Positions 38,908 through 54,518 of a stretch of DNA of 64,000 nt are shown one piece after another. The DNA comes from Escherichia coli (GTDB taxonomy: Bacteria > Pseudomonadota > Gammaproteobacteria > Enterobacterales > Enterobacteriaceae), in the NCBI RefSeq assembly GCF_022846255.1, contig NZ_AP025682.1; one strand, written 5' to 3'. The notes beneath the pieces are model-generated. The model was not told the DNA's origin. It saw only the letters and a list, made by a program, of their open reading frames with translations, and did no database searches. The stretch's first letter is position 1; each line of letters begins with the position of its first letter. The position numbers and the translations under genes are program-made.

Positions 38908-40191
38908 ATGACAGAAGCGATGAAAATTACCCTCTCTACCCAACCTGCCGATGCGCGCTGGGGAGAAAAAGCAACTTACAGCATTAATAATGATGGCATT
39001 ACCCTGCATTTGAACGGGGCAGACGATCTGGGGCTGATCCAGCGTGCGGCGCGCAAGATTGATGGTCTGGGCATCAAGCATGTTCAGCTAAGCGGAGAAG
39101 GCTGGGATGCGGATCGCTGCTGGGCATTCTGGCAAGGTTACAAAGCCCCGAAAGGCACGCGTAAAGTGGAGTGGCCGGATCTGGACGATGTCCAGCGCCA
39201 GGAACTGGATAACCGCCTGATGATCATCGACTGGGTGCGTGACACCATTAACGCACCGGCGGAAGAGCTGGGGCCATCGCAACTGGCACAGCGTGCTGTT
39301 GATCTGATCAGCAATGTCGCGGGCGATCGTGTGACTTACCGGATCACCAAAGGCGAAGATCTGCGTGATCAAGGTTATATGGGACTGCACACGGTCGGAC
39401 GCGGTTCAGAACGTTCTCCGGTATTGCTGGCGCTGGATTACAACCCAACTGGCGATAAAGAAGCGCCAGTGTACGCGTGCCTGGTTGGTAAAGGCATCAC
39501 TTTTGACTCCGGCGGCTACAGCATCAAACAGACCGCATTTATGGACTCGATGAAGTCGGACATGGGCGGCGCGGCAACGGTTACCGGGGCGCTGGCGTTT
39601 GCCATTACGCGCGGACTGAATAAGCGCGTGAAGCTGTTCCTCTGCTGTGCGGATAACCTGATCAGCGGCAACGCGTTCAAACTGGGCGATATTATTACCT
39701 ATCGCAACGGTAAAAAAGTCGAAGTGATGAACACCGATGCCGAAGGGCGTCTGGTGCTGGCCGATGGCCTGATTGATGCCAGTGCGCAGAAACCGGAACT
39801 GATCATTGATGCGGCGACCCTCACCGGGGCGGCGAAAACTGCGCTGGGTAATGATTATCACGCGTTGTTCAGTTTTGACGATGCGCTTGCCGGTCGTTTG
39901 CTGGCGAGTGCCTCACAAGAGAACGAACCGTTCTGGCGTCTGCCGCTTGCGGAATTCCACCGCAGCCAGCTGCCGTCTAACTTTGCCGAACTGAACAATA
40001 CCGGAAGCGCGGCGTATCCGGCAGGTGCAAGTACGGCTGCGGGCTTCCTGTCGCACTTTGTTGAGAACTATCAGCAAGGCTGGCTGCATATCGACTGCTC
40101 GGCGACTTACCGTAAAGCGCCGGTTGAACAGTGGTCTGCGGGTGCTACGGGACTTGGTGTGCGCACGATTGCTAATCTGTTAACGGCGTAA
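38908..40191 (+). CDS. pepB: aminopeptidase B (M17 family)
   Basis: 427 aa; M17 motif NTDAEGRL. Confidence 0.95.
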
Positions 40192-40199
40192 ACTAATAT

Positions 40200-40296
<97 letters not shown>

Positions 40297-40332
40297 ACTT
40301 GCTCCCCGAACGTTGAATGAATTGTGGTTCTT

Positions 40333-41109
40333 ATGTCCGAAACAAAAAACGAACTTGAAGACCTGCTGGAAAAAGCAGCAACCGAACCGGCTCACCGCCC
40401 GGCCTTTTTCCGTACTCTACTGGAATCCACCGTCTGGGTGCCTGGTACGGCGGCGCAGGGCGAGGCAGTAGTTGAAGATAGCGCGCTTGATTTACAGCAC
40501 TGGGAAAAAGAAGACGGCACCAGCGTCATTCCTTTTTTTACCTCGTTAGAAGCACTTCAACAGGCGGTTGAAGACGAACAGGCATTTGTCGTAATGCCCG
40601 TTCGCACATTGTTTGAGATGACCCTTGGCGAAACGCTCTTCCTTAATGCCAAACTGCCAACCGGTAAAGAGTTTATGCCGCGTGAAATCAGTTTGTTGAT
40701 TGGTGAAGAAGGGAATCCGCTGAGTAGCCAGGAAGTACTGGAAGGCGGTGAATCGCTGATATTATCGGAAGTCGCAGAGCTGCCAGCACAAATGATTGAT
40801 TCACTCACCACCTTATTTAAAACCATTAAGCCGGTGAAGCGTGCTTTTATTTGTTCAATTAAAGAGAACGAAGAGGCACAGCCTAATTTACTTATTGGCA
40901 TTGAAGCCGATGGTGATATCGAAGAAATTATTCAGGTGGCGGGAAGTGTAGCGACCGATACATTACCTGGCGATGAGCCCATCGATATTTGTCAGGTGAA
41001 AAAAGGGGAAAAAGGAATTAGCCACTTTATTACCGAACATATTGTGCCATTCTATGAACGTCGCTGGGGTGGTTTTTTGCGTGACTTTAAACAGAGTCGG
41101 ATAATCTAA
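40333..41109 (+). CDS. sseB: SseB (enhanced serine sensitivity protein B)
   Basis: 258 aa from ATG 40333 (MSETKNELEDLLEKAATEPAHRPAFF). Confidence 0.9.
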   Translation: MSETKNELEDLLEKAATEPAHRPAFFRTLLESTVWVPGTAAQGEAVVEDSALDLQHWEKEDGTSVIPFFTSLEALQQAVEDEQAFVVMPVRTLFEMTLGETLFLNAKLPTGKEFMPREISLLIGEEGNPLSSQEVLEGGESLILSEVAELPAQMIDSLTTLFKTIKPVKRAFICSIKENEEAQPNLLIGIEADGDIEEIIQVAGSVATDTLPGDEPIDICQVKKGEKGISHFITEHIVPFYERRWGGFLRDFKQSRII

Positions 41110-41420
41110 AATATGCCGCCCCAAAGGGCGGCATTCGGGCTTACTTGCTGCTCTGAAGTTTGTTAACCACCAGTAAATTGTCGCCGGAGAGACTCCGGTT
41201 ATTATTTACCTCGGTTAACAGCGCACCAGAAACAATAAGTACGATACAGAAGCACCGTATCTTCATTGTGCGGTCCATGCGAAGACCGCATCACGACAGC
41301 ACCACTGGCGATATTGCCGCGATAGCAAGCGCTGTGAAACACCTGCATTTACGGCCATGGAACATCCTTTCCTTAAGCCAGCGCCCGTTTGCGAGACGGC
41401 GGAAAGGGCCGGTGTCGATA
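41105..41420 (-). ncRNA. ryfA: RyfA-like transcript (about 310 nt; probably a small-protein mRNA, TimP/RyfA family)
   Basis: Minus-strand unit bounded by a 9-bp GC-rich hairpin (41113-41134) plus U-run at its 3' end and promoter-like elements near 41420-41461; position between sseB and sseA and size match enterobacterial ryfA; the 5' end is approximate. Confidence 0.55.
41141..41278 (-). CDS. candidate small hydrophobic peptide (TimP-like putative type I toxin), 45 aa, or 41 aa from the second ATG
   Basis: Minus-strand ORF MDRTMKIRCFCIVLIVSGALLTEVNNNRSLSGDNLLVVNKLQSSK inside the RyfA-like transcript; hydrophobic N-terminal segment then polar tail; weak Shine-Dalgarno; below the 60-aa cutoff of the supplied ORF track. 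Confidence 0.35.
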   Translation of the reverse strand: MDRTMKIRCFCIVLIVSGALLTEVNNNRSLSGDNLLVVNKLQSSK

Positions 41421-41489
41421 ATACGCTAAATAAACAATGATTGCTCTCTTTCGCTTGACAAAAAGAGAGTTACTGGCGAGTATTGCTTT

Positions 41490-41592
41490 GCTGTGAAGCA
41501 CCTGCGTTGCTCATGCAACACAAGCCAATCTGCTGGAAAGGCCGCGAACCAAACCAGCAACAAATAACCGCCTGATTTTGGCGGTTTTTTGT
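41490..41592 (+). ncRNA. candidate small RNA unit 1 (about 100 nt), divergent from the RyfA-like transcript; putative antitoxin (TimR/RyfB-like)
   Basis: TTGACA (41455-41460) - 17 bp - GAGTAT (41478-41483) promoter, then about 100 nt ending in AACCGCC-tgatttt-GGCGGTT hairpin plus TTTTTTGTTG; the 5' end (41490-41505, GCTGTGAAGCACCTGC) is complementary to the RyfA-like RNA; no ORF. Confidence 0.45.
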
Positions 41593-41767
41593 TGTTTAAA
41601 GAAAGTGAAATTACACGTTTAAGTAATATCTTTTACCAGTTAGTATTTTAATATTAAGCGGGATTTGTTTATATTTGTCTGAATTCGGACTGATAAGCCA
41701 AATGAATTCAAAATCTATCCTTTTTTATCTACTTGACATCGTTGATGCATAAAGCGAGTATTGAGTA

Positions 41768-41856
41768 GACGAGATACACTTGCAGTAATACAACCTGCTG
41801 GAAAGGCCGCGAACCAGACCAGCAATAAAAAACCGCCAAATTCGGCGGTTTTTTAT
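41768..41856 (+). ncRNA. candidate small RNA unit 2 (paralog of unit 1, about 90 nt); its terminator also serves convergent sseA
   Basis: Second TTGACA (41733-41738) - 17 bp - GAGTAT (41756-41761) promoter; 3' 60 nt (CTGCTGGAAAGGCCGCGAACCAGACCAGCAA...) near-identical to unit 1; ends in AAAACCGCC-aaattc-GGCGGTTTTTT bidirectional terminator directly after the sseA stop. Confidence 0.4.
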
Positions 41857-41870
41857 TGCCTGTAAAAAGC

Positions 41871-42716
41871 TTATTTTACGGGCTCAACCGGTAAATCTGC
41901 TCGTGCGCCCCATTCACTCCATGCGCCGTCGTACAGTTTCACGTTTGGCACATCAAGTGTCGCGAGTGCCAACAAAACCACGGCTGCCGTTACACCAGAG
42001 CCGCAGCTGACGATAATAGGTTTGTCATAACTTACGCCGCGACCAAAAAATATCGCATCCAGTTCATCGGTCGTTTTTAGTTCACCTTCGCGCACCAGTT
42101 CCGTCCACGGAACATTTAGTGCACCGGGAATATGTCCGCGACGTAAACCTGGGCGAGGTTCATCAACTTCTGCGTTAAAACGTGCAGCCGGGCGGGCATC
42201 GATAATTTGCGCCGTATTTTCATGGCTTGCCAATAACACATCGGTTACTTTCACCACGGCTTCAGGATTAAACGCGGCGTTAAACTCTCCTTCCGGCAGC
42301 TCTACTGCGCCTTCTTCTAATAGCAGATCATCACGCTGCCAGCCTGCAAGTCCACCACCCAGAATCGACACTTTCTCTACACCAAAGGTGCGCAGCATCC
42401 ACCATGCTCGTGGGGCTGAGAAAAGATTACCTTCGTCATAGACAATCAGGTGCTTATCCTGGTTAACGCCTAATTCACGCATCGCCACGGCGAACGTTTC
42501 CGGGCGCGGCAGCATGTGCGGAAGCGGGGAAGTGTGATCAGAAAGCGCTTCTATATCAAAAAACACTGCGCCGGGAATATGTCCATTCAGATACTCCTGA
42601 GCAACGTTACGATCTTCCTGTCCAGGCGACGCCATGCGGGCATCGATAATCTGAATTTCCGGGTCATCAATATGTTCGGCGAGCCAGTCGGCTCCTACAA
42701 ACCATGTCGTGGACAT
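41871..42716 (-). CDS. sseA: 3-mercaptopyruvate sulfurtransferase (tandem rhodanese domains)
   Basis: 281 aa from internal ATG 42716 (MSTTWFVGADWL); active-site CGSGVTA. Confidence 0.93.
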   Translation of the reverse strand: MSTTWFVGADWLAEHIDDPEIQIIDARMASPGQEDRNVAQEYLNGHIPGAVFFDIEALSDHTSPLPHMLPRPETFAVAMRELGVNQDKHLIVYDEGNLFSAPRAWWMLRTFGVEKVSILGGGLAGWQRDDLLLEEGAVELPEGEFNAAFNPEAVVKVTDVLLASHENTAQIIDARPAARFNAEVDEPRPGLRRGHIPGALNVPWTELVREGELKTTDELDAIFFGRGVSYDKPIIVSCGSGVTAAVVLLALATLDVPNVKLYDGAWSEWGARADLPVEPVK

Positions 42717-42922
42717 AGGCATCTCCATTTTTGCCGGGGTTAGGCTAAATTGTCGGATGTTTAGTGAAAGGCGACAAGCAAAAGAGGCTGATTTGGCTGT
42801 CTGAGCCACAATTCTCACTAAAATTCGGATTGTATGGGCGTGATACTGAATTACATAACGTAAATTCTCACGCATAATAATTATTCGACGTTGCTAACGG
42901 GCCATTGTGGCAGGGATGAAAA

Positions 42923-45900
42923 ATGAAAAAGTTACGCGTAGCCGCCTGCATGCTAATGCTGGCGCTGGCAGGGTGCGACAACAACGATAACGCGCCAACA
43001 GCGGTGAAAAAAGATGCGCCTTCTGAAGTTACTAAAGCGGCCTCTTCAGAAAACGTGAGTTCAGCAAAACTTTCCGCGCCAGAGCGACAAAAACTGGCCC
43101 AACAGAGTGCCGGTAAGGCGCTGACATTGCTGGATCTCTCTGAAGTTCAACTTGATGGCGCAGCCACGCTGGTGCTGACATTCTCCATCCCTCTCGACCC
43201 GGATCAGGAATTCTCACGCGTTATCCATGTCGTCGATAAGAAAAGCGGCAAAGTGGATGGTGCCTGGGAGCTGTCAGATAATCTTAAAGAGTTGCGTTTA
43301 CGCCACCTCGAACCGAAACGTGATTTGATCGTCACTATTGGCAAGGAGGTCAAAGCACTCAACAACGCAACCTTCAGTAAAGATTACGAAAAAACTATAA
43401 CTACCCGAGATATCCAACCCAGCGTCGGTTTTGCCAGCCGTGGCTCGTTGTTACCTGGTAAAGTTATTGAAGGGCTGCCGGTAATGGCGCTCAACGTTAA
43501 CAATGTCGATGTTAACTTCTTCCGTGTTAAGCCAGAATCTCTGCCTGCATTCATTAGCCAATGGGAATACCGCAATTCGCTGGCGAACTGGCAGTCTGAC
43601 AAACTGCTGCAGATGGCGGATCTGGTTTATACCGGACGGTTTGATCTCAATTCTGCGCGTAACACCCGTGAAAAATTATTGCTGCCGCTGGGCGATATCA
43701 AACCGCTTCAGCAGGCAGGCGTGTATCTGGCTGTGATGAATCAGGCTGGACGTTACGATTACAGTAATCCCGCGACGCTGTTTACGTTAAGTGATATCGG
43801 CGTTTCAGCTCACCGTTATCACAATCGTCTGGATATCTTTACCCAAAGCCTGGAAAACGGCGCGGCCCAGCAAGGAGTTGAAGTCTCATTATTAAATGAG
43901 AAAGGGCAGACTCTGACTCAGGCAACCAGTGATGCCCAGGGGCATGTGCAGCTGGAAAATGATAAAAACGCGGCATTACTGTTGGCGCGTAAAGACGGTC
44001 AGACAACGCTACTCGATTTAAAACTTCCGGCGCTGGACTTAGCAGAATTTAACATTGCTGGCGCGCCAGGCTATAGCAAACAGTTTTTCATGTTTGGCCC
44101 GCGCGATCTTTATCGCCCTGGTGAAACAGTCATCCTCAATGGTTTATTGCGTGATGCAGATGGTAAAGCATTGCCCGATCAACCCATCAAGTTAGACGTG
44201 ATTAAACCCGACGGGCAGGTACTCAGGAGCGTCGTTAGTCAGCCGGAGAATGGCCTCTACCACTTTACCTGGCCACTCGATAGCAATGCGGCAACCGGTA
44301 TGTGGCATATTCGCGCTAACACGGGCGATAACCAGTATCGGATGTGGGATTTCCACGTCGAAGATTTTATGCCAGAGCGCATGGCGCTGAATCTGACCGG
44401 TGAGAAAACCCCGCTAACGCCGAAAGATGAAGTGAGATTCTCCGTGGTGGGGTACTACCTGTATGGTGCGCCTGCTAATGGTAATACTTTGCAAGGGCAA
44501 CTTTTCCTGCGCCCACTGCGTGAAGCTGTGTCAGCCTTACCTGGTTTCGAATTCGGCGATATAGCTGCCGAAAATCTTTCCCGCACGCTGGATGAAGTTC
44601 AGTTGACGCTGGATGATAAAGGGCGTGGCGAAGTTTCTACAGAAAGCCAGTGGAAGGAAACGCATTCCCCATTACAGGTTATTTTCCAGGGTAGTTTGTT
44701 GGAATCGGGCGGTCGCCCGGTGACGCGCCGCGCTGAGCAGGCTATCTGGCCTGCTGATGCATTGCCGGGGATCCGTCCGCAGTTCGCCTCGAAATCGGTT
44801 TACGATTATCGCACCGACAGCACGGTGAAACAGCCCATTGTTGATGAAGGCAGTAACGCCGCTTTTGACATCGTTTATAGCGATGCGCAAGGCGTGAAAA
44901 AAGCCGTATCGGGCTTGCAGGTGCGCCTGATTCGCGAACGCCGCGATTACTACTGGAACTGGTCGGAATATGAAGGCTGGCAGTCACAGTTTGAGCAAAA
45001 AGATCTGATCGAAAATGAACAAACTCTGGATCTGAAAGCGGACGAAACCGGTAAGGTCAGTTTCCCGGTAGAGTGGGGCGCTTATCGTCTGGAAGTTAAA
45101 GCGCCGAATGAAGCGGTCAGTAGTGTGCGTTTCTGGGCTGGCTATAGCTGGCAGGACAACAGCGACGGGAGCGGTGCCGTGCGACCCGACCGTGTCACGC
45201 TGAAACTGGATAAAGCCAGTTATCGCCCTGGCGATACCATTAAGTTGCATATTGCCGCGCCAACGGCGGGTAAAGGTTATGCGATGGTCGAGTCCAGTGA
45301 AGGGCCGCTGTGGTGGCAAGAGATTGATGTTCCGGCTCAAGGGCTGGATCTGACGATTCCGGTCGATAAAACCTGGAATCGTCATGATTTGTATTTAAGT
45401 ACGCTGGTGGTACGTCCTGGCGATAAATCTCGCTCCGCGACGCCAAAACGCGCAGTTGGGGTGTTGCATCTGCCGCTTGGCGATGAAAACCGTCGTCTCG
45501 ATCTGGCGCTGGAAACCCCCACCAAAATGCGCCCCAATCAGCCATTAACCGTGAAAATTAAAGCCAGCAATAAAAATGGTGAGATGCCAAAACAGGTGAA
45601 TGTGCTGGTGTCTGCCGTTGATAGCGGTGTGCTGAATATTACTGATTACGTTACCCCCGATCCGTGGCAGGCGTTCTTTGGTCAGAAACGCTATGGTGCA
45701 GACATTTACGATATTTACGGTCAGGTCATTGAAGGTCAGGGGCGTCTGGCAGCTCTGCGTTTTGGTGGCGATGGTGATGAGCTGAAACGTGGTGGTAAAC
45801 CGCCGGTCAATCACGTCAATATTGTCGCGCAGCAGGCGCTGCCGGTAACGCTCAACGAACAGGGTGAAGGCTCGGTTACACTGCCGATTGGTGATTTTAA

Positions 45901-47884
45901 CGGTGAATTGCGCGTCATGGCGCAAGCCTGGACGGCAGATGACTTCGGAAGCAACGAAAGCAAAGTGATTGTTGCTGCACCGGTGATTGCTGAACTGAAC
46001 ATGCCACGCTTTATGGCGAGTGGCGATACCTCGCGCCTGACGCTGGATATCACTAATCTTACCGATAAACCGCAAAAACTTAATGTTGCTCTGACCGCCA
46101 GTGGCTTGCTTGAACTGGTGAGTAATTCCCCCGCACCTGTTGAATTAGCGCCAGGGGTGCGTACTACGCTGTTTATCCCGGTGCGTGCATTGCCGGGTTA
46201 TGGCGATGGAGACATTCAGGCCACCATTAGCGGGTTAGCGTTACCCGGGGAAACCGTTGCCGATCAGCATAAGCAGTGGACAATCGGCGTCCGTCCGGCA
46301 TTCCCGGCACAAACGGTCAATTACGGTACGGCGTTACAGCCTGGTGAAACCTGGGCGCTCCCGGCTGATGGATTGCAAAACTTCTCGCCTGTTACGCTGG
46401 AAGGGCAATTGTTGTTGAGCGGCAAACCACCGCTGAACATCGCACGTTATATCAAAGAGTTAAAAGCGTATCCGTACGGCTGTCTCGAGCAAACCACCAG
46501 CGGCCTGTTCCCGTCACTTTATACCAATGCAGCCCAACTGCAGGCGTTGGGCATCAAAGGCGACAGTGATGAGAAACGCCGTGCATCGGTCGATATCGGC
46601 ATTTCCCGTTTGCTGCAAATGCAACGTGATAACGGCGGCTTTACGCTGTGGGATAAAAACGGTGACGAAGAGTACTGGCTGACGGCTTACGTGATGGATT
46701 TCCTGGTCCGCGCAGGCGAACAGGGTTACAGCGTACCGACAGACGCCATTAACCGGGGTAATGAGCGTCTGCTGCGCTATTTACAAGATCCGGGCATGAT
46801 GTCGATCCCGTACGCTGATAATCTCAAAGCCAGTAAATTCGCCGTACAGTCTTACGCTGCGCTGGTGTTGGCCCGTCAGCAAAAAGCACCACTGGGTGCG
46901 TTGCGTGAAATCTGGGAGCATCGTGCAGATGCCGCTTCTGGTTTACCGCTGCTGCAACTTGGCGTTGCGCTGAAAACCATGGGTGATGCAATGCGTGGTG
47001 AAGAAGCGATTGTGCTGGCGCTGAAAACGCCGCGTAATAGTGATGAGCGGATATGGCTGGGTGATTACGGTAGTCCACTGCGCGACAGCGCGTTGATGCT
47101 CTCATTGCTGGAAGAGAACAAACTGCTACCCGATGAGCAGTACTCCCTGTTGAACACACTTTCGCAGCAGGCGTTCGGTGAACGCTGGCTATCGACGCAG
47201 GAAAGTAACGCGTTGTTCCTGGCTGCCCGTACTCTTCAGGATTTACCGGGCAAATGGCAGGCGCAAACCACTTTCTCTGCTGAGCCGCTGACAGGCGAGA
47301 AAGCGCAAACCAGCAATCTGAATAGCGATCAACTTGCCACCTTGCAGGTGACCAACAGTGGCGATCAGCCGTTATGGCTGCGTGTGGATGCCAGCGGTTA
47401 TCCGCAATCCGCACCTTTACCGGCGAGCAATGTGCTGCAAATTGAGCGTCATATTCTGGGTACTGACGGTAAGAGCAAATCGCTGGACTCGTTACGTAGC
47501 GGCGATCTGGTGCTGGTGTGGTTGCAGGTTAAAGCCAGTAACAGTGTACCGGATGCGTTAGTCGTGGATCTGTTGCCTGCGGGGCTGGAACTGGAAAACC
47601 AGAATCTGGCGAACGGCAGCGCCAGCCTGGAGCAAAGTGGTGGTGAAGTGCAGAACTTGCTGAACCAGATGCAGCAGGCGAGCATTAAGCACATAGAGTT
47701 CCGTGACGATCGCTTTGTGGCGGCGGTTGCCGTTGATGAATATCAACCGGTAACGCTGGTGTATCTGGCGCGGGCGGTGACGCCGGGAACGTATCAGGTG
47801 CCGCAGCCTATGGTGGAATCAATGTATGTTCCTCAATGGCGGGCGACTGGTGCGGCTGACGATCTGTTGATAGTCAGACCGTAA
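42923..47884 (+). CDS. yfhM: alpha-2-macroglobulin family lipoprotein (ECAM) with intact thioester site
   Basis: 1653 aa; lipobox LAGC at the N-terminus; thioester motif CLEQ in KAYPYGCLEQTTSG. Confidence 0.93.
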   Translation: MKKLRVAACMLMLALAGCDNNDNAPTAVKKDAPSEVTKAASSENVSSAKLSAPERQKLAQQSAGKALTLLDLSEVQLDGAATLVLTFSIPLDPDQEFSRVIHVVDKKSGKVDGAWELSDNLKELRLRHLEPKRDLIVTIGKEVKALNNATFSKDYEKTITTRDIQPSVGFASRGSLLPGKVIEGLPVMALNVNNVDVNFFRVKPESLPAFISQWEYRNSLANWQSDKLLQMADLVYTGRFDLNSARNTREKLLLPLGDIKPLQQAGVYLAVMNQAGRYDYSNPATLFTLSDIGVSAHRYHNRLDIFTQSLENGAAQQGVEVSLLNEKGQTLTQATSDAQGHVQLENDKNAALLLARKDGQTTLLDLKLPALDLAEFNIAGAPGYSKQFFMFGPRDLYRPGETVILNGLLRDADGKALPDQPIKLDVIKPDGQVLRSVVSQPENGLYHFTWPLDSNAATGMWHIRANTGDNQYRMWDFHVEDFMPERMALNLTGEKTPLTPKDEVRFSVVGYYLYGAPANGNTLQGQLFLRPLREAVSALPGFEFGDIAAENLSRTLDEVQLTLDDKGRGEVSTESQWKETHSPLQVIFQGSLLESGGRPVTRRAEQAIWPADALPGIRPQFASKSVYDYRTDSTVKQPIVDEGSNAAFDIVYSDAQGVKKAVSGLQVRLIRERRDYYWNWSEYEGWQSQFEQKDLIENEQTLDLKADETGKVSFPVEWGAYRLEVKAPNEAVSSVRFWAGYSWQDNSDGSGAVRPDRVTLKLDKASYRPGDTIKLHIAAPTAGKGYAMVESSEGPLWWQEIDVPAQGLDLTIPVDKTWNRHDLYLSTLVVRPGDKSRSATPKRAVGVLHLPLGDENRRLDLALETPTKMRPNQPLTVKIKASNKNGEMPKQVNVLVSAVDSGVLNITDYVTPDPWQAFFGQKRYGADIYDIYGQVIEGQGRLAALRFGGDGDELKRGGKPPVNHVNIVAQQALPVTLNEQGEGSVTLPIGDFNGELRVMAQAWTADDFGSNESKVIVAAPVIAELNMPRFMASGDTSRLTLDITNLTDKPQKLNVALTASGLLELVSNSPAPVELAPGVRTTLFIPVRALPGYGDGDIQATISGLALPGETVADQHKQWTIGVRPAFPAQTVNYGTALQPGETWALPADGLQNFSPVTLEGQLLLSGKPPLNIARYIKELKAYPYGCLEQTTSGLFPSLYTNAAQLQALGIKGDSDEKRRASVDIGISRLLQMQRDNGGFTLWDKNGDEEYWLTAYVMDFLVRAGEQGYSVPTDAINRGNERLLRYLQDPGMMSIPYADNLKASKFAVQSYAALVLARQQKAPLGALREIWEHRADAASGLPLLQLGVALKTMGDAMRGEEAIVLALKTPRNSDERIWLGDYGSPLRDSALMLSLLEENKLLPDEQYSLLNTLSQQAFGERWLSTQESNALFLAARTLQDLPGKWQAQTTFSAEPLTGEKAQTSNLNSDQLATLQVTNSGDQPLWLRVDASGYPQSAPLPASNVLQIERHILGTDGKSKSLDSLRSGDLVLVWLQVKASNSVPDALVVDLLPAGLELENQNLANGSASLEQSGGEVQNLLNQMQQASIKHIEFRDDRFVAAVAVDEYQPVTLVYLARAVTPGTYQVPQPMVESMYVPQWRATGAADDLLIVRP

Positions 47885-50197
47885 ATGCCTCGCCTGTTAA
47901 CCAAACGCGGCTGCTGGATAATGCTGGCAGCCGCGCCTTTTATCATCATTCTGGCAGCATGGGCAGCAGATAAACTCTGGCCTCTGCCATTGCAAGAAGT
48001 GAATCCTGCACGCGTGGTGGTGGCGCAGGATGGTACGCCACTCTGGCGTTTCGCCGATGCTGACGGCATCTGGCGTTATCCGGTAACAATCGAAGATGTT
48101 TCTCCACGTTACCTTGAAGCGCTGATCAATTATGAAGATCGCTGGTTCTGGAAGCATCCGGGGGTGAATCCGTTCTCGGTGGCGCGTGCAGCCTGGCAAG
48201 ATCTCACGTCGGGTCGGGTCATTTCCGGCGGCAGCACGCTCACCATGCAGGTGGCGCGCCTGCTTGATCCTCACCCCAAAACGTTTGGCGGCAAAATTCG
48301 CCAGCTCTGGCGCGCGTTGCAACTGGAATGGCATCTGTCTAAACGTGAAATTCTGACCTTGTATCTTAACCGTGCCCCGTTTGGCGGTACGTTGCAGGGG
48401 ATTGGTGCGGCAAGTTGGGCTTACCTCGGGAAATCGCCTGCGAATTTAAGCTATTCCGAGGCGGCAATGCTGGCGGTGTTGCCGCAAGCGCCCAGCCGTC
48501 TTCGCCCGGATCGTTGGCCGGAGCGTGCCGAAGCCGCGCGTAATAAAGTGCTCGAACGGATGGCCGTGCAAGGTGTGTGGTCCCATGAGCGGGTAAAAGA
48601 GTCAAGGGAAGAACCCATCTGGCTGGCACCCCGACAAATGCCGCAACTGGCACCGCTGTTTTCGCGCATGATGCTCGGTAAAAGCAAAAGCGACAAAATC
48701 GTTACTACGCTGGATGCCGGTCTTCAACGACGTCTGGAAGAACTGGCGCAAAACTGGAAAGGACGATTACCACCGCGCAGCTCACTGGCGATGATCGTGG
48801 TTGATCATACCGATATGCGTGTTCGCGGCTGGGTGGGTTCGGTTGATCTCAACGATGATTCACGCTTTGGTCATGTTGATATGGTCAATGCGATCCGATC
48901 GCCAGGATCGGTGCTCAAACCGTTTGTTTACGGTCTGGCGCTGGATGAAGGCTTGATCCACCCGGCATCGCTGTTGCAAGACGTCCCCCGGCGTACCGGT
49001 GATTACCGACCTGGCAACTTTGACAGCGGTTTTCATGGCCCGATCAGCATGAGCGAGGCGCTGGTGCGCTCGCTGAATTTACCAGCTGTGCAGGTGCTGG
49101 AAGCCTATGGACCGAAACGGTTTGCGGCAAAATTACGCAATGTTGGATTGCCGTTGTATCTGCCCAACGGTGCTGCGCCGAATCTTTCGCTCATTCTCGG
49201 CGGCGCTGGTGCAAAACTGGAAGATATGGCGGCGGCCTATACCGCGTTTGCTCGCCACGGCAAGGCAGGTAAATTGCGCTTACAGCCTGACGATCCGCTG
49301 CTTGAACGGCCTTTAATGTCGTCGGGGGCTGCGTGGATCATTCGCCGGATTATGGCTGATGAAGCGCAACCCTTGCCGGATGGTGCCTTGCCGCGCGTCG
49401 CCCCACTGGCATGGAAAACGGGCACCAGCTATGGCTATCGTGATGCCTGGGCGATTGGGGTTAACGCTCGCTATGTCATTGGGATCTGGACTGGCAGACC
49501 GGACGGCACGCCCGTTGTTGGTCAGTTTGGCTTTGCCAGTGCCGTACCGCTGTTGAATCAGGTTAATAATATCTTACTGTCGCGCAGTGTGAATTTGCCG
49601 GAAGACCCACGTCCTGACTCTGTAAGTCGTGGCGTTATCTGCTGGCCGGGCGGACAGTCTTTGCCGGAAGGTGACGGTAACTGTCGCCGCCGCCTGGCAA
49701 CCTGGCTGCTGGACGGGAGCCAGCCGCCAACTCTATTACTGCCGGAGCAGGAAGGCATTAATGGCATTCGTTTCCCCATCTGGCTGGATGAAAACGGCAA
49801 ACGTGTTGCCGCTGATTGCCCTCAGGCGCGACAAGAAATGATAAATGTCTGGCCGCTATCGCTGGAACCCTGGCTGCCCGCATCAGAACGTCGCGCTGTG
49901 CGCTTGCCACCGGCCTCGACAATTTGCCCGCCATACGGTCACGATGCACAACTCCCGCTGCAGCTAACAGGTGTGCGCGATGGCGCGATTATTAAACGTT
50001 TACCGGGCGCAGCGGAAGCGACTTTGCCGTTGCAATCAAGTGGAGGGGCAGGTGAACGCTGGTGGTTTCTGAATGGCGAACCGTTAACTGAACGTGGGCG
50101 CAACGTGACCCTGCATTTGACGGATAAAGGCGATTATCAATTGCTGGTGATGGATGACGTGGGGCAAATAGCGACAGTGAAATTTGTCATGCAATAG
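47885..50197 (+). CDS. pbpC: penicillin-binding protein 1C (bifunctional glycosyltransferase/transpeptidase)
   Basis: 770 aa; GT51 motifs and transpeptidase KTG(T/S) motif (WKTGTSYGYRDAWA); ATG directly abuts the yfhM stop (TAAATG). Confidence 0.93.
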   Translation: MPRLLTKRGCWIMLAAAPFIIILAAWAADKLWPLPLQEVNPARVVVAQDGTPLWRFADADGIWRYPVTIEDVSPRYLEALINYEDRWFWKHPGVNPFSVARAAWQDLTSGRVISGGSTLTMQVARLLDPHPKTFGGKIRQLWRALQLEWHLSKREILTLYLNRAPFGGTLQGIGAASWAYLGKSPANLSYSEAAMLAVLPQAPSRLRPDRWPERAEAARNKVLERMAVQGVWSHERVKESREEPIWLAPRQMPQLAPLFSRMMLGKSKSDKIVTTLDAGLQRRLEELAQNWKGRLPPRSSLAMIVVDHTDMRVRGWVGSVDLNDDSRFGHVDMVNAIRSPGSVLKPFVYGLALDEGLIHPASLLQDVPRRTGDYRPGNFDSGFHGPISMSEALVRSLNLPAVQVLEAYGPKRFAAKLRNVGLPLYLPNGAAPNLSLILGGAGAKLEDMAAAYTAFARHGKAGKLRLQPDDPLLERPLMSSGAAWIIRRIMADEAQPLPDGALPRVAPLAWKTGTSYGYRDAWAIGVNARYVIGIWTGRPDGTPVVGQFGFASAVPLLNQVNNILLSRSVNLPEDPRPDSVSRGVICWPGGQSLPEGDGNCRRRLATWLLDGSQPPTLLLPEQEGINGIRFPIWLDENGKRVAADCPQARQEMINVWPLSLEPWLPASERRAVRLPPASTICPPYGHDAQLPLQLTGVRDGAIIKRLPGAAEATLPLQSSGGAGERWWFLNGEPLTERGRNVTLHLTDKGDYQLLVMDDVGQIATVKFVMQ

Positions 50198-50260
50198 TCT
50201 GTTTTGTCCCTGATTGTTGCTTAAACTGGGTTTATTTTAAAAAAATGTTACCTTCATCAA

Positions 50261-50289
50261 TAGTCAACGGCCCTGTTGCTCATTATAAT
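50261..50289 (+). promoter_or_regulatory. putative sigma70 promoter of ndk
   Basis: TAGTCA (-35) - 17 bp - TATAAT (-10) about 55 bp upstream of the ndk ATG. Confidence 0.4.
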
Positions 50290-50345
50290 CCGCGCCATCT
50301 CGTACGCTGGTACAGACAACAACAGAACAATTTACAGAGGTAAAA

Positions 50346-50777
50346 ATGGCTATTGAACGTACTTTTTCCATCATCAAACCGAACGCGGTAGCAAAAAACG
50401 TGATTGGTAGTATCTTTGCGCGCTTTGAAGCTGCAGGGTTCAAAATTGTCGGCACCAAAATGCTGCACCTGACCGTTGAACAGGCTCGTGGCTTTTATGC
50501 TGAACACGATGGAAAACCGTTCTTTGATGGTCTGGTTGAATTCATGACTTCTGGCCCGATCGTTGTTTCCGTGCTGGAAGGTGAAAATGCTGTTCAGCGT
50601 CACCGCGATCTGCTGGGCGCGACCAATCCGGCAAATGCACTGGCCGGTACTCTGCGTGCTGATTACGCTGACAGCCTGACCGAAAATGGTACCCACGGTT
50701 CTGATTCCGTCGAATCTGCCGCTCGCGAAATCGCTTATTTCTTCGGCGAAGGCGAAGTGTGCCCGCGCACCCGTTAA
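50346..50777 (+). CDS. ndk: nucleoside diphosphate kinase
   Basis: 143 aa; active-site NGTHGSDS. Confidence 0.97.
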
Positions 50778-50840
50778 TAATTTCGTAAATGCCGCGTGCA
50801 AACGTGGCATCCGTGCGCCAGAATTTGTACAATGCAGCGC

Positions 50841-50880
50841 CCCCGGACGAGCAGCCGCTCACCGGGGCGTTTCTTTTTTC
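50841..50880 (+). terminator. putative intrinsic terminator downstream of ndk
   Basis: CCCCGG...CCGGGG stem followed by a T-rich tract (CGTTTCTTTTTTC). Confidence 0.4.
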
Positions 50881-50926
50881 AACCCTCCAGGGGCCATAAC
50901 GTGTAATAACGAGGCCGGAATAGCAT

Positions 50927-52081
50927 ATGTCTGAACAATTAGTCACACCTGAAAACGTCACCACGAAAGATGGAAAAATCAACCTGCTGGATCTCAACCG
51001 TCAGCAGATGCGGGAGTTTTTTAAAGATTTAGGTGAAAAACCCTTCCGCGCCGATCAGGTGATGAAGTGGATGTATCACTATTGCTGCGACAACTTTGAT
51101 GAGATGACCGACATCAATAAAGTGTTGCGCGGCAAACTGAAAGAGGTGGCGGAAATCCGTGCACCGGAAGTGGTTGAAGAACAGCGTTCATCTGACGGCA
51201 CCATTAAATGGGCGATCGCCGTTGGCGATCAGCGCGTTGAAACGGTGTATATCCCGGAAGACGACCGTGCCACGCTCTGCGTCTCTTCGCAGGTGGGGTG
51301 TGCGCTGGAGTGTAAATTCTGTTCCACCGCCCAGCAGGGCTTTAACCGCAACCTGCGGGTATCGGAAATTATCGGCCAGGTGTGGCGTGCGGCGAAAATT
51401 GTCGGCGCAGCAAAAGTCACCGGTCAGCGCCCAATCACTAACGTAGTGATGATGGGTATGGGCGAGCCGCTGCTCAACCTGAACAACGTCGTTCCGGCGA
51501 TGGAAATCATGCTTGATGATTTCGGTTTTGGCCTGTCAAAACGTCGCGTCACGCTTTCCACTTCCGGTGTGGTTCCGGCGCTGGATAAACTGGGCGATAT
51601 GATCGACGTAGCGCTGGCAATTTCCCTGCACGCGCCGAACGACGAAATTCGTGACGAAATTGTGCCGATCAACAAAAAGTACAATATCGAAACGTTCCTT
51701 GCGGCGGTGTGCCGTTATCTGGAGAAATCCAACGCCAATCAGGGCCGAGTCACTATTGAATACGTGATGCTTGACCACGTTAACGACGGCACTGAACACG
51801 CGCACCAACTGGCAGAACTGCTGAAAGATACGCCGTGTAAGATCAACCTGATCCCGTGGAACCCGTTCCCGGGCGCGCCGTATGGACGCAGTTCGAACAG
51901 CCGTATCGACCGTTTCTCAAAAGTGCTGATGAGCTACGGTTTCACCACTATTGTGCGTAAAACTCGTGGTGATGACATTGATGCTGCTTGTGGTCAGTTG
52001 GCGGGCGATGTTATCGACCGTACGAAACGTACTCTGCGTAAGCGGATGCAGGGTGAAGCCATCGACATTAAAGCGGTCTGA
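50927..52081 (+). CDS. rlmN: 23S rRNA/tRNA adenine C2-methyltransferase RlmN (radical SAM)
   Basis: 384 aa; radical-SAM CxxxCxxC motif (CALECKFC). Confidence 0.96.
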
Positions 52082-52087
52082 TAGCCA

Positions 52088-52127
52088 TTACGCCACGGTT
52101 ACTTTATGTACCGTGGCGTAATCTTTT
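52088..52127 (+). terminator. intrinsic terminator of rlmN
   Basis: TTACGCCACGG-loop-CCGTGGCGTAA 11-bp stem followed by TCTTTT. Confidence 0.6.
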
Positions 52128-52365
52128 ATGAATGAAGTATTAAGTTGCAATTGTCTGGTCAATATTAACGGTGCGTTTTTGCTGACTTTAAGGCAGTATG
52201 TAACGATGCAACAGTAAGTTAGCCTTAGCGAATGTGGGCTTTGTCACGAGCACACAGACGGTCTTATACTGTATGATAACGGTTAACTTAACGGATGTTT
52301 CGCGGTGTGGGTGGGCATGATGGTTCACCGGCATCTCAATTCTCATTTAAACGTACCTGCAGCGA

Positions 52366-53373
52366 ATGAATACTGAAGCCACGCACGACCAAAATGAAGC
52401 ACTTACTACCGGCGCTCGCCTGCGTAATGCTCGCGAACAACTAGGACTTAGTCAACAGGCCGTTGCCGAGCGACTTTGCCTGAAGGTTTCCACGGTACGC
52501 GACATTGAAGAAGATAAGGCACCCGCCGATCTTGCTTCAACATTCCTGCGCGGATATATCCGCTCTTATGCGCGTCTGGTACATATTCCAGAAGAAGAAC
52601 TGCTGCCAGGGCTGGAAAAGCAGGCTCCACTACGGGCTGCAAAAGTTGCGCCGATGCAGAGTTTTTCCCTCGGTAAACGCCGCAAAAAACGTGACGGCTG
52701 GCTGATGACCTTCACCTGGCTGGTGTTGTTTGTGGTTATTGGCCTGAGCGGTGCCTGGTGGTGGCAAGACCACAAAGCTCAGCAGGAAGAGATCACCACT
52801 ATGGCCGATCAATCTTCTGCGGAACTGAATAATAATCAAAGCCAGAGTGTACCGTTAGATACGTCGACAACCACAGATCAGGCTATGGCGACCACGCCGA
52901 CATCACCTGTGGATACCACCGCAACCAACACGCAAACACCTGCCGTAACTGCGCCAGCACCAGCTGTTGATCCGCAACAGAATGCGGTTGTTCCACCTTC
53001 GCAGGCAAATGTTGATACCGCTGCGACTCCGGCACCAGCGGCAACAACAACACCAGATGGCGCTGCGCCGTTGCCAACCGATCAGGCTGGCGTGACCACG
53101 CCGGCGGTTGACCCGAATGCGCTGGTGATGAACTTTACTGCCGATTGCTGGCTGGAAGTCACCGATGCTACCGGTAAAAAACTGTTTAGCGGTATGCAGC
53201 GTAAAGACGGTAATTTGAACTTAACCGGCCAGGCACCGTACAAACTGAAAATTGGTGCGCCAGCCGCAGTACAGATCCAGTATCAAGGGAAACCTGTCGA
53301 TCTGAGTCGTTTTATCAGAACTAACCAGGTTGCGCGTCTGACCCTCAATGCCGAACAATCACCGGCGCAGTAA
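52366..53373 (+). CDS. rodZ: cytoskeleton protein RodZ
   Basis: 335 aa; N-terminal XRE-type HTH, single TM segment, Pro/Thr/Ala-rich periplasmic linker, C-terminal domain. Confidence 0.93.
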
Positions 53374-53399: not shown

Positions 53400-54518
53400 A
53401 TGCATAACCAGGCTCCAATTCAACGTAGAAAATCAACACGTATTTACGTTGGGAATGTGCCGATTGGCGATGGTGCTCCCATCGCCGTACAGTCCATGAC
53501 CAATACGCGTACGACAGACGTCGAAGCAACGGTCAATCAAATCAAGGCGCTGGAACGTGTTGGCGCTGATATCGTCCGTGTCTCCGTACCGACGATGGAC
53601 GCGGCAGAAGCGTTCAAACTCATCAAACAGCAGGTTAACGTGCCGCTGGTGGCTGACATCCACTTCGACTATCGCATTGCGCTGAAAGTAGCGGAATACG
53701 GCGTCGATTGTCTGCGTATTAACCCTGGCAATATCGGTAATGAAGAGCGTATTCGCATGGTGGTTGACTGTGCGCGCGATAAAAACATTCCGATCCGTAT
53801 TGGCGTTAATGCCGGATCGTTGGAAAAAGATCTGCAAGAAAAGTATGGCGAACCGACGCCGCAGGCGTTGCTGGAATCTGCCATGCGTCATGTTGATCAT
53901 CTCGATCGCCTGAACTTCGATCAGTTCAAAGTCAGCGTGAAAGCGTCTGACGTCTTCCTCGCTGTTGAGTCTTATCGTTTGCTGGCAAAACAAATCGATC
54001 AGCCGCTGCATCTGGGGATCACCGAAGCCGGTGGTGCGCGTAGCGGGGCAGTAAAATCCGCTATTGGTTTAGGTCTGCTGCTGTCTGAAGGCATCGGCGA
54101 CACGCTGCGCGTATCGCTGGCGGCCGATCCGGTCGAAGAGATCAAAGTCGGTTTCGATATTTTGAAATCGCTGCGTATCCGTTCGCGCGGGATCAACTTC
54201 ATCGCCTGCCCGACCTGTTCGCGTCAGGAATTTGATGTTATCGGTACGGTTAACGCGCTGGAGCAACGCCTGGAAGATATCATCACTCCGATGGACGTTT
54301 CGATTATCGGCTGCGTGGTGAATGGCCCTGGTGAGGCGCTGGTTTCTACACTCGGCGTCACTGGCGGCAACAAGAAAAGCGGCCTCTATGAAGATGGCGT
54401 GCGCAAAGACCGTCTGGACAACAACGATATGATCGATCAGCTGGAAGCGCGCATTCGTGCGAAAGCCAGTCAGCTGGACGAAGCGCGTCGAATTGACGTT
54501 CAGCAGGTTGAAAAATAA
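53400..54518 (+). CDS. ispG: 4-hydroxy-3-methylbut-2-enyl diphosphate synthase (IspG/GcpE)
   Basis: 372 aa; [4Fe-4S] ligands in [12 protein letters not shown] and GCVVNGPGE. Confidence 0.96.

What the first reader, a model, noticed from the sequence alone, without database searches (positions are those of the whole stretch)
42923..50197. alpha-2-macroglobulin (intact CLEQ thioester) translationally abutted to PBP1C
The 1653-aa lipoprotein retains the thioester motif (GCLEQ) and its stop codon directly abuts the pbpC start (TAAATG at 47882-47887), consistent with an obligately co-expressed periplasmic protease-trap plus cell-wall-repair pair.
Basis: partly seen in the sequence, partly recalled or inferred. 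Interest (0 to 1): 0.4.

Follow-up and report, generated by a model that had tools for sequence, protein, structure and literature searches.

The report
E. coli yfhM–pbpC operon, known pair
This is the well-studied E. coli gene pair for a periplasmic protease trap (alpha-2-macroglobulin YfhM/ECAM) and the cell-wall enzyme PBP1C, so the finding is ordinary; the one thing I could not find described is a conserved RNA hairpin inside the first codons of pbpC that may let the cell make more trap than enzyme.

Summary
ORF 42923-47884 (1653 aa) is E. coli YfhM/ECAM. It has the full bacterial alpha-2-macroglobulin domain set, a lipobox with Cys18 followed by Asp, and GCLEQ at residues 1186-1190. It is 97.8% identical to K-12 YfhM, whose structure is solved (4RTD, 4ZIQ, 5A42). 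ORF 47885-50197 (770 aa) is PbpC/PBP1C with all catalytic motifs intact. TAAATG sits at 47882-47887.

The pair is core E. coli genome (5423 of 5426 complete genomes). The "protease trap plus wall repair" idea was published in 2004 and is still untested, so this is already known.

New detail on the junction:
- The gap is 0-1 nt in 65 of 71 Enterobacterales species.
- pbpC has no Shine-Dalgarno sequence in any of 69 tightly joined loci, which fits translational coupling.
- A 12-13 bp hairpin (47906-47935, codons 8-17 of pbpC) is kept across 69 species by many compensatory changes while the encoded peptide changes.
- Distant relatives with a real gap often carry a terminator right after the A2M stop.

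I infer that the hairpin forms or stabilises a yfhM 3' end, so the two genes are linked but not expressed equally. No transcript data could be found to test this.

The parts
42850..42878 (+). Sigma-70-like promoter match (ATTACA-17-CATAAT, 9 of 12), 45 nt upstream of the yfhM ATG. It is the only + strand promoter-like site between here and 50261.
   Evidence: This is a consensus match only; function was not shown.
42923..47884 (+). yfhM (ECAM), the bacterial type I alpha-2-macroglobulin. 1653 aa, inner-membrane lipoprotein, coordinates include the stop codon.
   Evidence: Pfam finds bMG1, A2M_bMG2, bMG3, MG2, bMG5, bMG6, A2M_BRD, A2M, TED_complement, CUB_A2MG and bMG10, all above their cut-offs. 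phmmer matches PDB 4rtd, 4ziq and 5a42 (E. coli YfhM) at 3581-3612 bits, and 4u48 (annotated only as a putative inner membrane lipoprotein / alpha-2-macroglobulin; I take it to be the Salmonella A2M from my own knowledge) at 3041 bits. 1616 of 1653 residues are identical to K-12 with no gaps.
42923..42976 (+). Signal peptide with lipobox LAGC (Cys18). The next residue is Asp, the Lol-avoidance signal for inner-membrane retention.
   Evidence: Inner-membrane anchoring of ECAM is stated in PMC4498604.
45197..45637 (+). Bait-region domain (residues 759-905).
   Evidence: Pfam PF07703, E = 3.9e-16.
46481..46492 (+). Thioester motif CLEQ (Cys1187-Gln1190) within the TED domain.
   Evidence: The residue numbers match those in the K-12 crystal structure paper (PMC4498604). 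CLEQ is present in 70 of the 71 related loci whose TED region was found; the other has CAEQ.
47882..47887 (+). Junction TAAATG: yfhM stop followed directly by the pbpC start. There is no Shine-Dalgarno sequence upstream.
   Evidence: Anti-SD duplex energy is +0.4 kcal/mol for pbpC, against -6.0 for yfhM, -7.1 for ndk and -5.9 for rlmN.
47885..50197 (+). pbpC (PBP1C), a class A penicillin-binding protein. 770 aa, coordinates include the stop codon.
   Evidence: NCBIfam NF008414 PbpC equivalog, 1564.6 bits against a cut-off of 1121; TIGR02073 PBP_1c, 915.8 bits against 494.2. Pfam finds Transgly, Transpeptidase and BiPBP_C. 754 of 770 residues are identical to K-12. Motifs: EDRWFWKHPG at 84, GGSTLTMQ at 115, SVLK at 342, SLN at 396, KTG at 511.
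47906..47935 (+). Conserved sense-strand RNA hairpin inside pbpC codons 8-17: CGCGGCUGCUGG-AUAAUG-CUGGCAGCCGCG, followed by CCUUUUAUCAUCAUU. It begins 21 nt after the yfhM stop.
   Evidence: It is the strongest terminator-like hit in 41800-51000 (12 pairs, 9 G-C). Folding energy is -23.4 kcal/mol, z = -3.9. RNAalifold on 69 species predicts the same stem, with 9 of 10 pairs showing compensatory changes. 90.8% of cells are paired, against 30-60% when the partner is slid; 131 cells have changes on both sides, against 49 +/- 5.5 in shuffles (0 of 500 reach the observed value). No Rfam family matches.
41871..42716 (-). sseA (3-mercaptopyruvate sulfurtransferase), the divergently transcribed upstream neighbour. 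Given as context.
   Evidence: Annotation of matching E. coli records.
50346..50777 (+). ndk (nucleoside-diphosphate kinase), the downstream neighbour, with its own promoter-like site at 50261-50289. Given as context.

Best explanation
The region is the Escherichia coli yfhM-pbpC operon.

**Shown by sequence identity to experimentally characterised proteins**
- YfhM (ECAM) is a monomeric, inner-membrane-anchored periplasmic alpha-2-macroglobulin. A protease that cuts its bait region triggers a conformational change and becomes covalently bound through the Cys1187-Gln1190 thioester.
- PbpC is the third class A PBP of E. coli. It has a GT51 glycosyltransferase domain, a transpeptidase-fold domain and a BiPBP_C domain.

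**Inferred from sequence here**
- Both genes are transcribed from a promoter upstream of yfhM.
- pbpC has no Shine-Dalgarno sequence and starts 0-1 nt after the yfhM stop, so it is translated mainly by ribosomes that have just terminated on yfhM (my estimate about 0.7).

**Inferred from comparative evidence**
- A conserved RNA hairpin in pbpC codons 8-17, 21 nt after the yfhM stop, acts as a 3'-end element for the yfhM cistron. It could be a partial terminator or pause site, a barrier to 3' exonucleases, or both.
- The result would be more YfhM than PbpC (my estimate about 0.5).

**Published hypothesis, untested**
- The trap protects the envelope from proteases that enter after outer-membrane damage, and PBP1C repairs the peptidoglycan.
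For: **Identity**
- Full A2M domain set; PbpC equivalog models above their cut-offs.
- PDB entries for E. coli YfhM matched at more than 3580 bits.
- 97.8% and 97.9% identity to K-12 YfhM and PbpC, with no gaps.
- 5423 of 5426 complete E. coli genomes carry the whole region, annotated yfhM | pbpC between sseA and ndk.
- CLEQ, lipobox with Asp at +2, and all PbpC motifs are intact.

**Trap mechanism and the pbpC linkage in the literature**
- PMC4498604, PMC3328433, PMC3735191.

**Single transcription unit and translational coupling**
- No + strand promoter-like site lies between 42878 and 50261.
- The gap is 0-1 nt in 65 of 71 loci.
- The SD duplex energy for pbpC is +0.4 kcal/mol here. Across 69 loci the mean is +0.21 and none is at or below -5, while neighbouring genes score -6 to -7.

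**Hairpin**
- Covariation statistics support it.
- The encoded peptide varies (KRGCWIMLAAAP, IRSRWLWLAGAL, IKRRWRWLAAFI) while pairing is kept.
- Conserved U-G and G-U wobble pairs mean only the sense RNA can form it.
- A d'Aubenton-Carafa-type score classes it as a terminator in 17 of 69 species. The Klebsiella oxytoca group scores +42 to +45 with a UUUAUUUUUUU tail.
- In Mangrovibacter the hairpin is shifted but has canonical terminator form.
- In distant relatives with real gaps, hairpins or canonical terminators lie 9-54 nt after the A2M stop and well upstream of pbpC (L061, L073, L082, L084).

**Weak expression support**
- One deep E. coli proteome lists YfhM (12 peptides) but has no pbpC row (PMC6544118 supplement).
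- In another, the pbpC row is all zeros (PMC8144880 supplement).
Against: - In E. coli itself the U-tract is poor. In the window it is CCUUUUAUCA, with T-score 1.31 and d = -21; in K-12 it is CCCUUUCUC. Efficient intrinsic termination is therefore not predicted.
- Only 17 of 69 species score as terminators, which points to a role for the stem itself rather than for termination.
- Two GC-rich distant loci (L083, L085) have no convincing hairpin after the A2M stop.
- I found no mapped 3' end in the supplements I could search. Those files may be truncated, and yfhM is weakly expressed in the laboratory.
- No direct YfhM-PBP1C interaction or joint phenotype has been reported in the papers I read.
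- The promoter call is a consensus match only.
Confidence: 0.85

Rival explanations
1. The hairpin acts on translation rather than on transcript 3' ends. Sitting just beyond the leading edge of a ribosome at the stop/start junction, it would either hold terminating ribosomes near the SD-less AUG and so favour re-initiation, or throttle elongation into pbpC to keep PBP1C low.
For: - The spacing from start codon to stem is constant (21 nt, no indels) in nearly all tightly joined loci.
- pbpC has no Shine-Dalgarno sequence in any of them.
- The stem is conserved while the U-tract is not.
Against: - In Mangrovibacter the hairpin lies about 25 nt further downstream.
- In relatives with 73-133 nt gaps, the hairpin stays next to the A2M stop and lies upstream of the pbpC start, where it cannot act as a downstream barrier for pbpC initiation.
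- The constant spacing could simply reflect the absence of indels in a short coding segment.
Confidence: 0.25
2. The adjacency and tight junction reflect shared descent and co-transfer of the two genes, not a working partnership. YfhM and PBP1C would then act independently.
For: - No direct interaction or joint phenotype is reported. PBP1c has no known role under standard laboratory conditions, and the first phenotype reported for it involves LdtD rather than YfhM (PMC7554673, PMC6131605).
- One sampled A2M relative (L087) has no pbpC downstream.
Against: - pbpC lies immediately downstream on the same strand in all 71 Enterobacterales loci where both gene ends could be read.
- It also does so in 6 of 7 distant loci at 36-56% identity, despite different surrounding genes.
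- Such persistence across changing neighbourhoods usually indicates selection for linkage. The literature reports the same co-occurrence (PMC3328433).
Confidence: 0.2
3. The hairpin is a by-product of protein-coding constraints: Arg/Lys codons before the membrane helix, a conserved Trp, and Leu-Ala codons. On this view it has no RNA-level function.
For: - The inner stem GCUGGC...GCUGGC coincides with the conserved W and L-A residues.
- GC-rich Ala, Gly and Arg codons pair easily with one another.
Against: - The outer stem positions change on both sides together. Columns 64-87 show GC 22, UA 19, CG 13, UG 5 and AU 3; columns 65-86 show CG 29 and GC 28; columns 67-84 show CG 34, UA 14 and GC 11.
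- The amino acids at those codons change in matched pairs (Gly/Ala, Ser/Gly, Arg/Ala, Thr/Gly, Asn/Val).
- Sliding the partner by 1-3 columns drops pairing from 90.8% to 30-60%.
- None of 203 background windows within the yfhM and pbpC coding regions reaches d > 0.
Confidence: 0.08

Closest known systems
E. coli K-12 YfhM (ECAM, b2520) - PbpC (PBP1C, b2519) operon
   Same: Same genes, same lengths (1653 and 770 aa), same 0-nt TAAATG junction, same neighbours (sseA, ndk), same thioester residue numbers, same hairpin.
   Different: Only allelic differences: 37 substitutions in YfhM and 16 in PbpC. Only 61 of 5425 matching genomes are at least 99% identical over the 7.7 kb, so the window comes from a less-sampled lineage.
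PDB 4U48 / 4U59 / 4U4J, which I take from my own knowledge to be the Salmonella enterica A2M; the search names them only as a putative inner membrane lipoprotein / alpha-2-macroglobulin
   Same: Alignment over residues 18-1653 at 3041 bits. A Salmonella locus (L065) is 82% identical, has CLEQ and a 0-nt junction to pbpC, and keeps the hairpin.
   Different: An orthologue from another genus. Its hairpin arms carry compensatory differences (CGUGGCCGCUGGC / GCUGGCGGUCGCG).
Type II bacterial alpha-macroglobulins (Pseudomonas MagD; the second E. coli class, which I recall as YfaS)
   Same: Same macroglobulin fold family and the same periplasmic location (PMC3735191).
   Different: MagD lacks both the lipobox Cys and the CxEQ thioester, and is encoded in a six-gene mag operon rather than next to pbpC. 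The window protein has the lipobox, CLEQ and pbpC, so it is type I.
Human alpha-2-macroglobulin / complement C3 / CD109
   Same: MG domains, bait region and a TED domain with a CxEQ thioester. Sequence matches to 7voo, 6tav, 8cem and 9fx2 have E-values from 1e-6 to 5e-4.
   Different: Only very distant in sequence. The bacterial protein is a membrane-anchored lipoprotein. That ECAM acts as a monomer while the human protein is a tetramer is from my own knowledge and from PMC3328433.
Hairpins between cistrons that set unequal expression within an operon: partial intrinsic terminators, and mRNA-stabilising stem-loops such as the REP element between malE and malF (own knowledge)
   Same: A stable GC-rich stem just after the upstream gene's stop. 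It scores as a terminator in some species and sits in a position to end or protect the upstream message.
   Different: It lies inside the coding sequence of the downstream gene. It is single-copy rather than a dispersed repeat (1 place per genome). Its U-tract is weak in E. coli. Its function is untested.

Membership tests
Bacterial type I alpha-2-macroglobulin (ECAM / YfhM) | Multi-domain architecture: MG1-MG2-MG3-MG4(MG2)-MG5-MG6, bait-region domain, A2M, TED, CUB, C-terminal MG10. | tested here: met
   All 11 Pfam domains are found in order and above their cut-offs. Full-length alignment to the solved YfhM structures.
Bacterial type I alpha-2-macroglobulin (ECAM / YfhM) | CxEQ thioester motif in the TED domain. 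| tested here: met
   GCLEQ at residues 1186-1190, nt 46478-46492.
Bacterial type I alpha-2-macroglobulin (ECAM / YfhM) | Signal peptide with a lipobox cysteine (membrane-anchored lipoprotein). | tested here: met
   LAGC with Cys18 and Asp at +2.
Bacterial type I alpha-2-macroglobulin (ECAM / YfhM) | Gene lies next to pbpC. | tested here: met
   0-nt junction. The same holds in K-12 and in 71 related loci.
Bacterial type I alpha-2-macroglobulin (ECAM / YfhM) | The thioester actually forms, and proteases are trapped covalently. | not testable with these tools
   Reported for the K-12 protein, which is 97.8% identical with no gaps (literature cited in PMC4498604 and PMC3328433).
PBP1C (PbpC), class A penicillin-binding protein | Scores above the curated equivalog cut-off. 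| tested here: met
   NF008414: 1564.6 bits against 1121. TIGR02073: 915.8 bits against 494.2.
PBP1C (PbpC), class A penicillin-binding protein | GT51 glycosyltransferase domain with the catalytic Glu motif; transpeptidase-fold domain with SxxK, SxN and KTG; C-terminal BiPBP_C domain; N-terminal membrane anchor. | tested here: met
   Pfam Transgly, Transpeptidase and BiPBP_C. EDRWFWKHPG at 84, GGSTLTMQ at 115, SVLK at 342, SLN at 396, KTG at 511. Hydrophobic N-terminus CWIMLAAAPFIIILAAWAA.
PBP1C (PbpC), class A penicillin-binding protein | Enzymatic activity (glycan polymerisation; atypical beta-lactam binding). | not testable with these tools
   Inferred from 97.9% identity to K-12 PbpC.
Intrinsic (Rho-independent) terminator, considered for the hairpin at 47906-47935 | GC-rich stem-loop. 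| tested here: met
   12 pairs, 9 of them G-C, 6-nt loop, -23.4 kcal/mol.
Intrinsic (Rho-independent) terminator, considered for the hairpin at 47906-47935 | U-rich tract immediately 3' of the stem. | tested here: not met
   In the window the tail is CCUUUUAUCA, with T-score 1.31 and d = -21. The feature is met in only 17 of 69 related species, for example Klebsiella oxytoca at d = +42 to +45. I therefore do not file the E. coli hairpin as a canonical terminator; it may still work like a weak one or as a stabiliser.
Intrinsic (Rho-independent) terminator, considered for the hairpin at 47906-47935 | An RNA 3' end is observed at the site. | not testable with these tools
   No entry for yfhM or pbpC in the Term-seq supplements held. 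Those files may be incomplete.
Rfam RNA families | Match to any curated covariance model at the hairpin. | tested here: not met
   No hit at 47800-48000, even at E <= 1.

The most novel reading that the evidence does not exclude
The covarying hairpin inside pbpC codons 8-17 could be a previously undescribed regulatory element embedded in coding sequence. It would set, and perhaps regulate, the YfhM:PBP1C ratio.

One version is a translation-sensitive attenuator. The hairpin forms, and ends or protects a yfhM-only transcript, unless a ribosome re-initiating at the abutting SD-less AUG follows RNA polymerase closely and melts it. pbpC expression would then report on coupling efficiency. A stable yfhM 3' fragment with a function of its own is also not excluded.
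Probability: 0.25. Interest if true: 0.5.

Novelty: already known. Interest (0 to 1): 0.25.

Why it matters
The gene pair itself adds nothing new. YfhM/ECAM has crystal and cryo-EM structures, and its linkage to pbpC has been discussed since 2004.

What could matter is the junction architecture. PBP1C is the one class A PBP of E. coli without an established role, and the "trap plus repair" hypothesis remains untested. Three observations here give concrete handles on when and how much PBP1C is made relative to the trap:

- pbpC has no ribosome-binding site of its own.
- It is welded to the yfhM stop across Enterobacteriaceae.
- It carries an evolutionarily maintained RNA hairpin in its first codons.

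They also suggest simple mutants (arm-disrupting and compensatory changes) that would uncouple the two proteins for functional tests.

Tried and rejected
- **Rfam:** an E-value scan of 40000-53000 and a gathering-threshold scan of the whole window found nothing at the hairpin.
- **Experimental 3' ends or expression data:**
  - The eLife 2021 Term-seq supplements have no yfhM or pbpC entry, and the main text does not mention them.
  - The TERMITe supplements have none.
  - Three other papers had no supplements held.
  - Two PMC ids recalled from memory for proteome and ribosome-profiling papers were not held.
- **Budd et al. 2004**, the original A2M-pbpC paper, is not held. I cite it only through papers that quote it.
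- **Full-text searches** for pbpC together with terminator, hairpin, attenuator or translational coupling found no relevant paper. None of the 43 papers mentioning yfhM concerns the junction.
- **The simple terminator scan** did not flag the hairpins in L061 and L073. In L073 the loop is far longer than the scan's 8-nt limit; for L061 the likeliest reason is that the stem runs into its own T-tract. I relied on folding instead.
- **DNA palindrome, protein-binding site or dispersed repeat:** rejected. Two stem positions are conserved G-U wobbles, so only the sense RNA pairs, and the junction sequence occurs once per genome.
- **A separate pbpC promoter inside yfhM:** no + strand consensus match between 42878 and 50261. 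This is weak negative evidence.
- **Sigma-E lead:** a genomic-SELEX table lists a minor-sigma binding peak inside yfhM (PMC5493296). A scan for GGAACTT-N15-17-TCAAA gave only poor matches, so I did not pursue it.
- **Structure prediction** was not run. Near-identity to solved structures makes it unnecessary.

Full report
**1. Observation**

The ORF list shows 42923..47884 (+, ATG, 1653 aa) followed at once by 47885..50197 (+, ATG, 770 aa). The sequence at 47882-47887 is TAAATG.

The first protein starts MKKLRVAACMLMLALAGC, with lipobox LAGC, Cys18 and Asp at +2. It contains YPYGCLEQTTSG, with Cys1187 to Gln1190 encoded at nt 46481-46492.

**2. Identity**

- *First protein.* Pfam finds the complete bacterial alpha-2-macroglobulin set in order: bMG1, A2M_bMG2, bMG3, MG2, bMG5, bMG6, bait-region domain, A2M, TED, CUB and bMG10. 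The PDB search returns E. coli YfhM (4rtd, 4ziq, 5a42) at more than 3580 bits over the full length, and 4u48 at 3041 bits; I take 4u48 to be the Salmonella A2M from my own knowledge.
- *Second protein.* It passes the NCBIfam PbpC equivalog (1564.6 bits against a cut-off of 1121) and TIGR02073. It has Transgly, Transpeptidase and BiPBP_C domains. The GT51 motifs and the SxxK, SxN and KTG motifs are intact.
- *Comparison with K-12.* The proteins are 1616/1653 and 754/770 identical, with no gaps.
- *Distribution.* The 7.7 kb region is present in 5423 of 5426 complete E. coli genomes, always on the chromosome, annotated sseA | yfhM | pbpC | ndk. Only 61 genomes are at least 99% identical, so the window comes from a less-sampled lineage.

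**3. What is already known**

- The papers I could read state that bacterial type I alpha-2-macroglobulins carry a lipobox and a CLEQ thioester, and are encoded next to pbpC (PMC3735191).
- ECAM traps proteases through the thioester, and both proteins are anchored in the inner membrane facing the periplasm (PMC4498604).
- Budd et al. 2004 proposed that the trap and PBP1C act together in defence and repair (PMC3328433).
- A 2020 review still calls the PBP1c role speculative (PMC7554673).
- The first phenotype reported for PBP1c concerns LdtD rather than YfhM (PMC6131605).

The pair is already known, and the functional link remains a hypothesis.

**4.

- K-12 has the same 0-nt junction. Around it, 21 nt are invariant among five E. 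coli strains.
- One scan of species-representative genomes gave 77 loci from Escherichia, Citrobacter, Salmonella, Klebsiella, Enterobacter, Kluyvera, Kosakonia and others.
- In every one of the 71 loci where both gene ends could be read, pbpC follows on the same strand. The gap is 0 nt in 29, 1 nt in 36, 3-12 nt in 4, and at least 52 nt in 2 (Providencia stuartii and an Enterobacterales MAG).
- Of the 71 loci whose TED region was found, 70 have CLEQ and one has CAEQ.
- pbpC has no Shine-Dalgarno sequence. The anti-SD duplex energy is +0.4 kcal/mol here; across 69 loci the mean is +0.21 and none is at or below -5. The neighbours yfhM, ndk, rlmN and sseA score -5.9 to -7.1.
- No + strand promoter-like site lies inside yfhM.

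These facts support one transcription unit, with pbpC translated by ribosomes that have just terminated on yfhM. That is an inference; nothing here measures it.

**5.

The strongest terminator-like hit in the region is a hairpin at 47906-47935, inside pbpC codons 8-17 and 21 nt after the yfhM stop. It folds at -23.4 kcal/mol (z = -3.9); the K-12 version folds at -20.8.

In an alignment of 69 species (A2):

- RNAalifold predicts the same stem independently, and 9 of 10 pairs show compensatory changes.
- For my 13-pair structure, 90.8% of cells are paired, against 30-60% when the 3' partner is slid by 1-3 columns.
- 10 of 13 pairs show changes on both sides.
- 131 cells have double changes, against 49 +/- 5.5 in shuffles (0 of 500 reach the observed value).
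- Single positions carry up to five pair types, for example GC 22, UA 19, CG 13, UG 5 and AU 3.

The encoded peptide changes while the pairing stays: KRGCWIMLAAAP in E. coli, IRSRWLWLAGAL in Enterobacter, IKRRWRWLAAFI in Klebsiella oxytoca. Codon pairs switch together: Gly/Ala, Ser/Gly, Arg/Ala, Thr/Gly, Asn/Val.

Two conserved G-U wobbles mean that only the sense RNA can form the stem. The sequence occurs once per genome and matches no Rfam family. I found no paper describing it.

**6. What the hairpin may do**

*Evidence that it marks the 3' side of the A2M cistron:*

- Relatives with a real intergenic gap place a strong hairpin or canonical terminator right after the A2M stop, well upstream of pbpC.
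  - L061: AAAAAGGACGAUG...AUUGUCCUUUUUU, -22.5 kcal/mol, z = -7.5.
  - L073: -24.4 kcal/mol, followed by UAUUUGUUUG.
  - L082: a -26.3 kcal/mol hairpin at +9, plus a canonical terminator at +54.
  - L084: a canonical terminator at +29.
- Mangrovibacter has a shifted hairpin of canonical terminator form inside pbpC.
- By a d'Aubenton-Carafa-type score (my own implementation with modern energy parameters), 17 of 69 Enterobacteriaceae hairpins class as terminators. The Klebsiella oxytoca group scores +42 to +45. None of 203 background coding windows does.

*Evidence against efficient termination in E. coli:*

- The U-tract is poor (d = -21 in the window).
- Two GC-rich distant loci lack a convincing hairpin.

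My best reading (about 0.5) is a leaky terminator or pause site, an exonuclease barrier, or both, giving more YfhM than PbpC. The main rival (about 0.25) is an effect on re-initiation or early elongation of pbpC. A pure coding by-product is unlikely (about 0.08).

Weak expression support: one deep proteome lists YfhM with 12 peptides but has no pbpC row, and in another the pbpC row is all zeros. I could find no 3'-end mapping data for this site.

**7. Wider sampling of the pairing**

Representatives at 36-56% identity were located on contigs. Six of seven have a Transgly/Transpeptidase/BiPBP_C gene, or in one case a 765-aa gene with no Pfam record, immediately downstream on the same strand, despite unrelated surrounding genes. 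The junctions range from a 1-nt overlap to 364 nt. One locus has no pbpC at all.

So the pairing is widespread, as the literature says. The welded junction, however, is a feature of Enterobacteriaceae. "Obligate" co-expression is too strong as a general statement.

**8. Verdict**

The system is already known.
- Interest is low for the finding as given. It rises modestly because of the conserved, apparently undescribed hairpin inside the coding sequence and the SD-less welded junction. Both are testable handles on how PBP1C is expressed relative to the trap.

Noticed in passing
window 47906-47935 (+); same position in L005-L081; K-12 NC_000913.3 minus strand 2647275-2647304: A conserved, covarying RNA hairpin inside pbpC codons 8-17, 21 nt after the yfhM stop. 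It has no Rfam match and no paper was found describing it. It scores as a terminator in 17 of 69 species but not in E. coli.
   Followed up: yes
L061 5563-5625; L073 9000-9072; L082 8526-8641; L084 5416-5500: In more distant A2M-pbpC loci that have a real intergenic gap (73-133 nt), a strong hairpin or canonical intrinsic terminator lies 9-54 nt after the A2M stop. pbpC may then depend on readthrough or on a promoter of its own.
   Followed up: partly
window 41108-41412 (-) and 41548-41724 (-): Rfam ryfA (311.7 bits) and IS128 RNA (164.8 bits) lie between sseB and sseA. The matching E. coli record annotates the small toxin gene timP here. Weak partial IS128-like repeats also appear at 41818-41896.
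   Followed up: no
window 4359-4506 (+), 33743-33852 (+), 54518-54609 (+): Known RNA elements elsewhere in the window: the GlmY sRNA, the iscRS stability element and the sroE sRNA. All score above their gathering thresholds.
   Followed up: no
window 42700-50400: Only 61 of 5425 matching E. coli genomes are at least 99% identical over this 7.7 kb; 5344 fall at 95-99%. Yet the 81-nt junction is 100% identical to O25:H4 and Nissle (EcN) strains, while only 1543 genomes give any megablast hit to it. The window comes from a less-sampled lineage, or this locus is mosaic.
   Followed up: partly
window about 43366, which is K-12 old coordinate 2649866, inside yfhM about 440 nt from its start: A genomic-SELEX study lists a minor-sigma (extracytoplasmic-stress section) RNA polymerase binding peak inside yfhM (PMC5493296). 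My scan for a sigma-E consensus at 42500-43900 found only poor matches, for example GGATGTT-N16-GCAAA at 42755.
   Followed up: partly
window 50198-50345: No terminator-like site lies between the pbpC stop and ndk. ndk has its own promoter-like site (50261-50289, 10 of 12), and the next + strand terminator-like site is after ndk at 50856. Transcription from pbpC may read into ndk.
   Followed up: no
L087 8337-8822: One A2M relative (38% identity) is followed by a 149-aa gene with no Pfam hit and a convergent sigma-54 activator gene, instead of pbpC. This is a variant context for a type I-like A2M.
   Followed up: no
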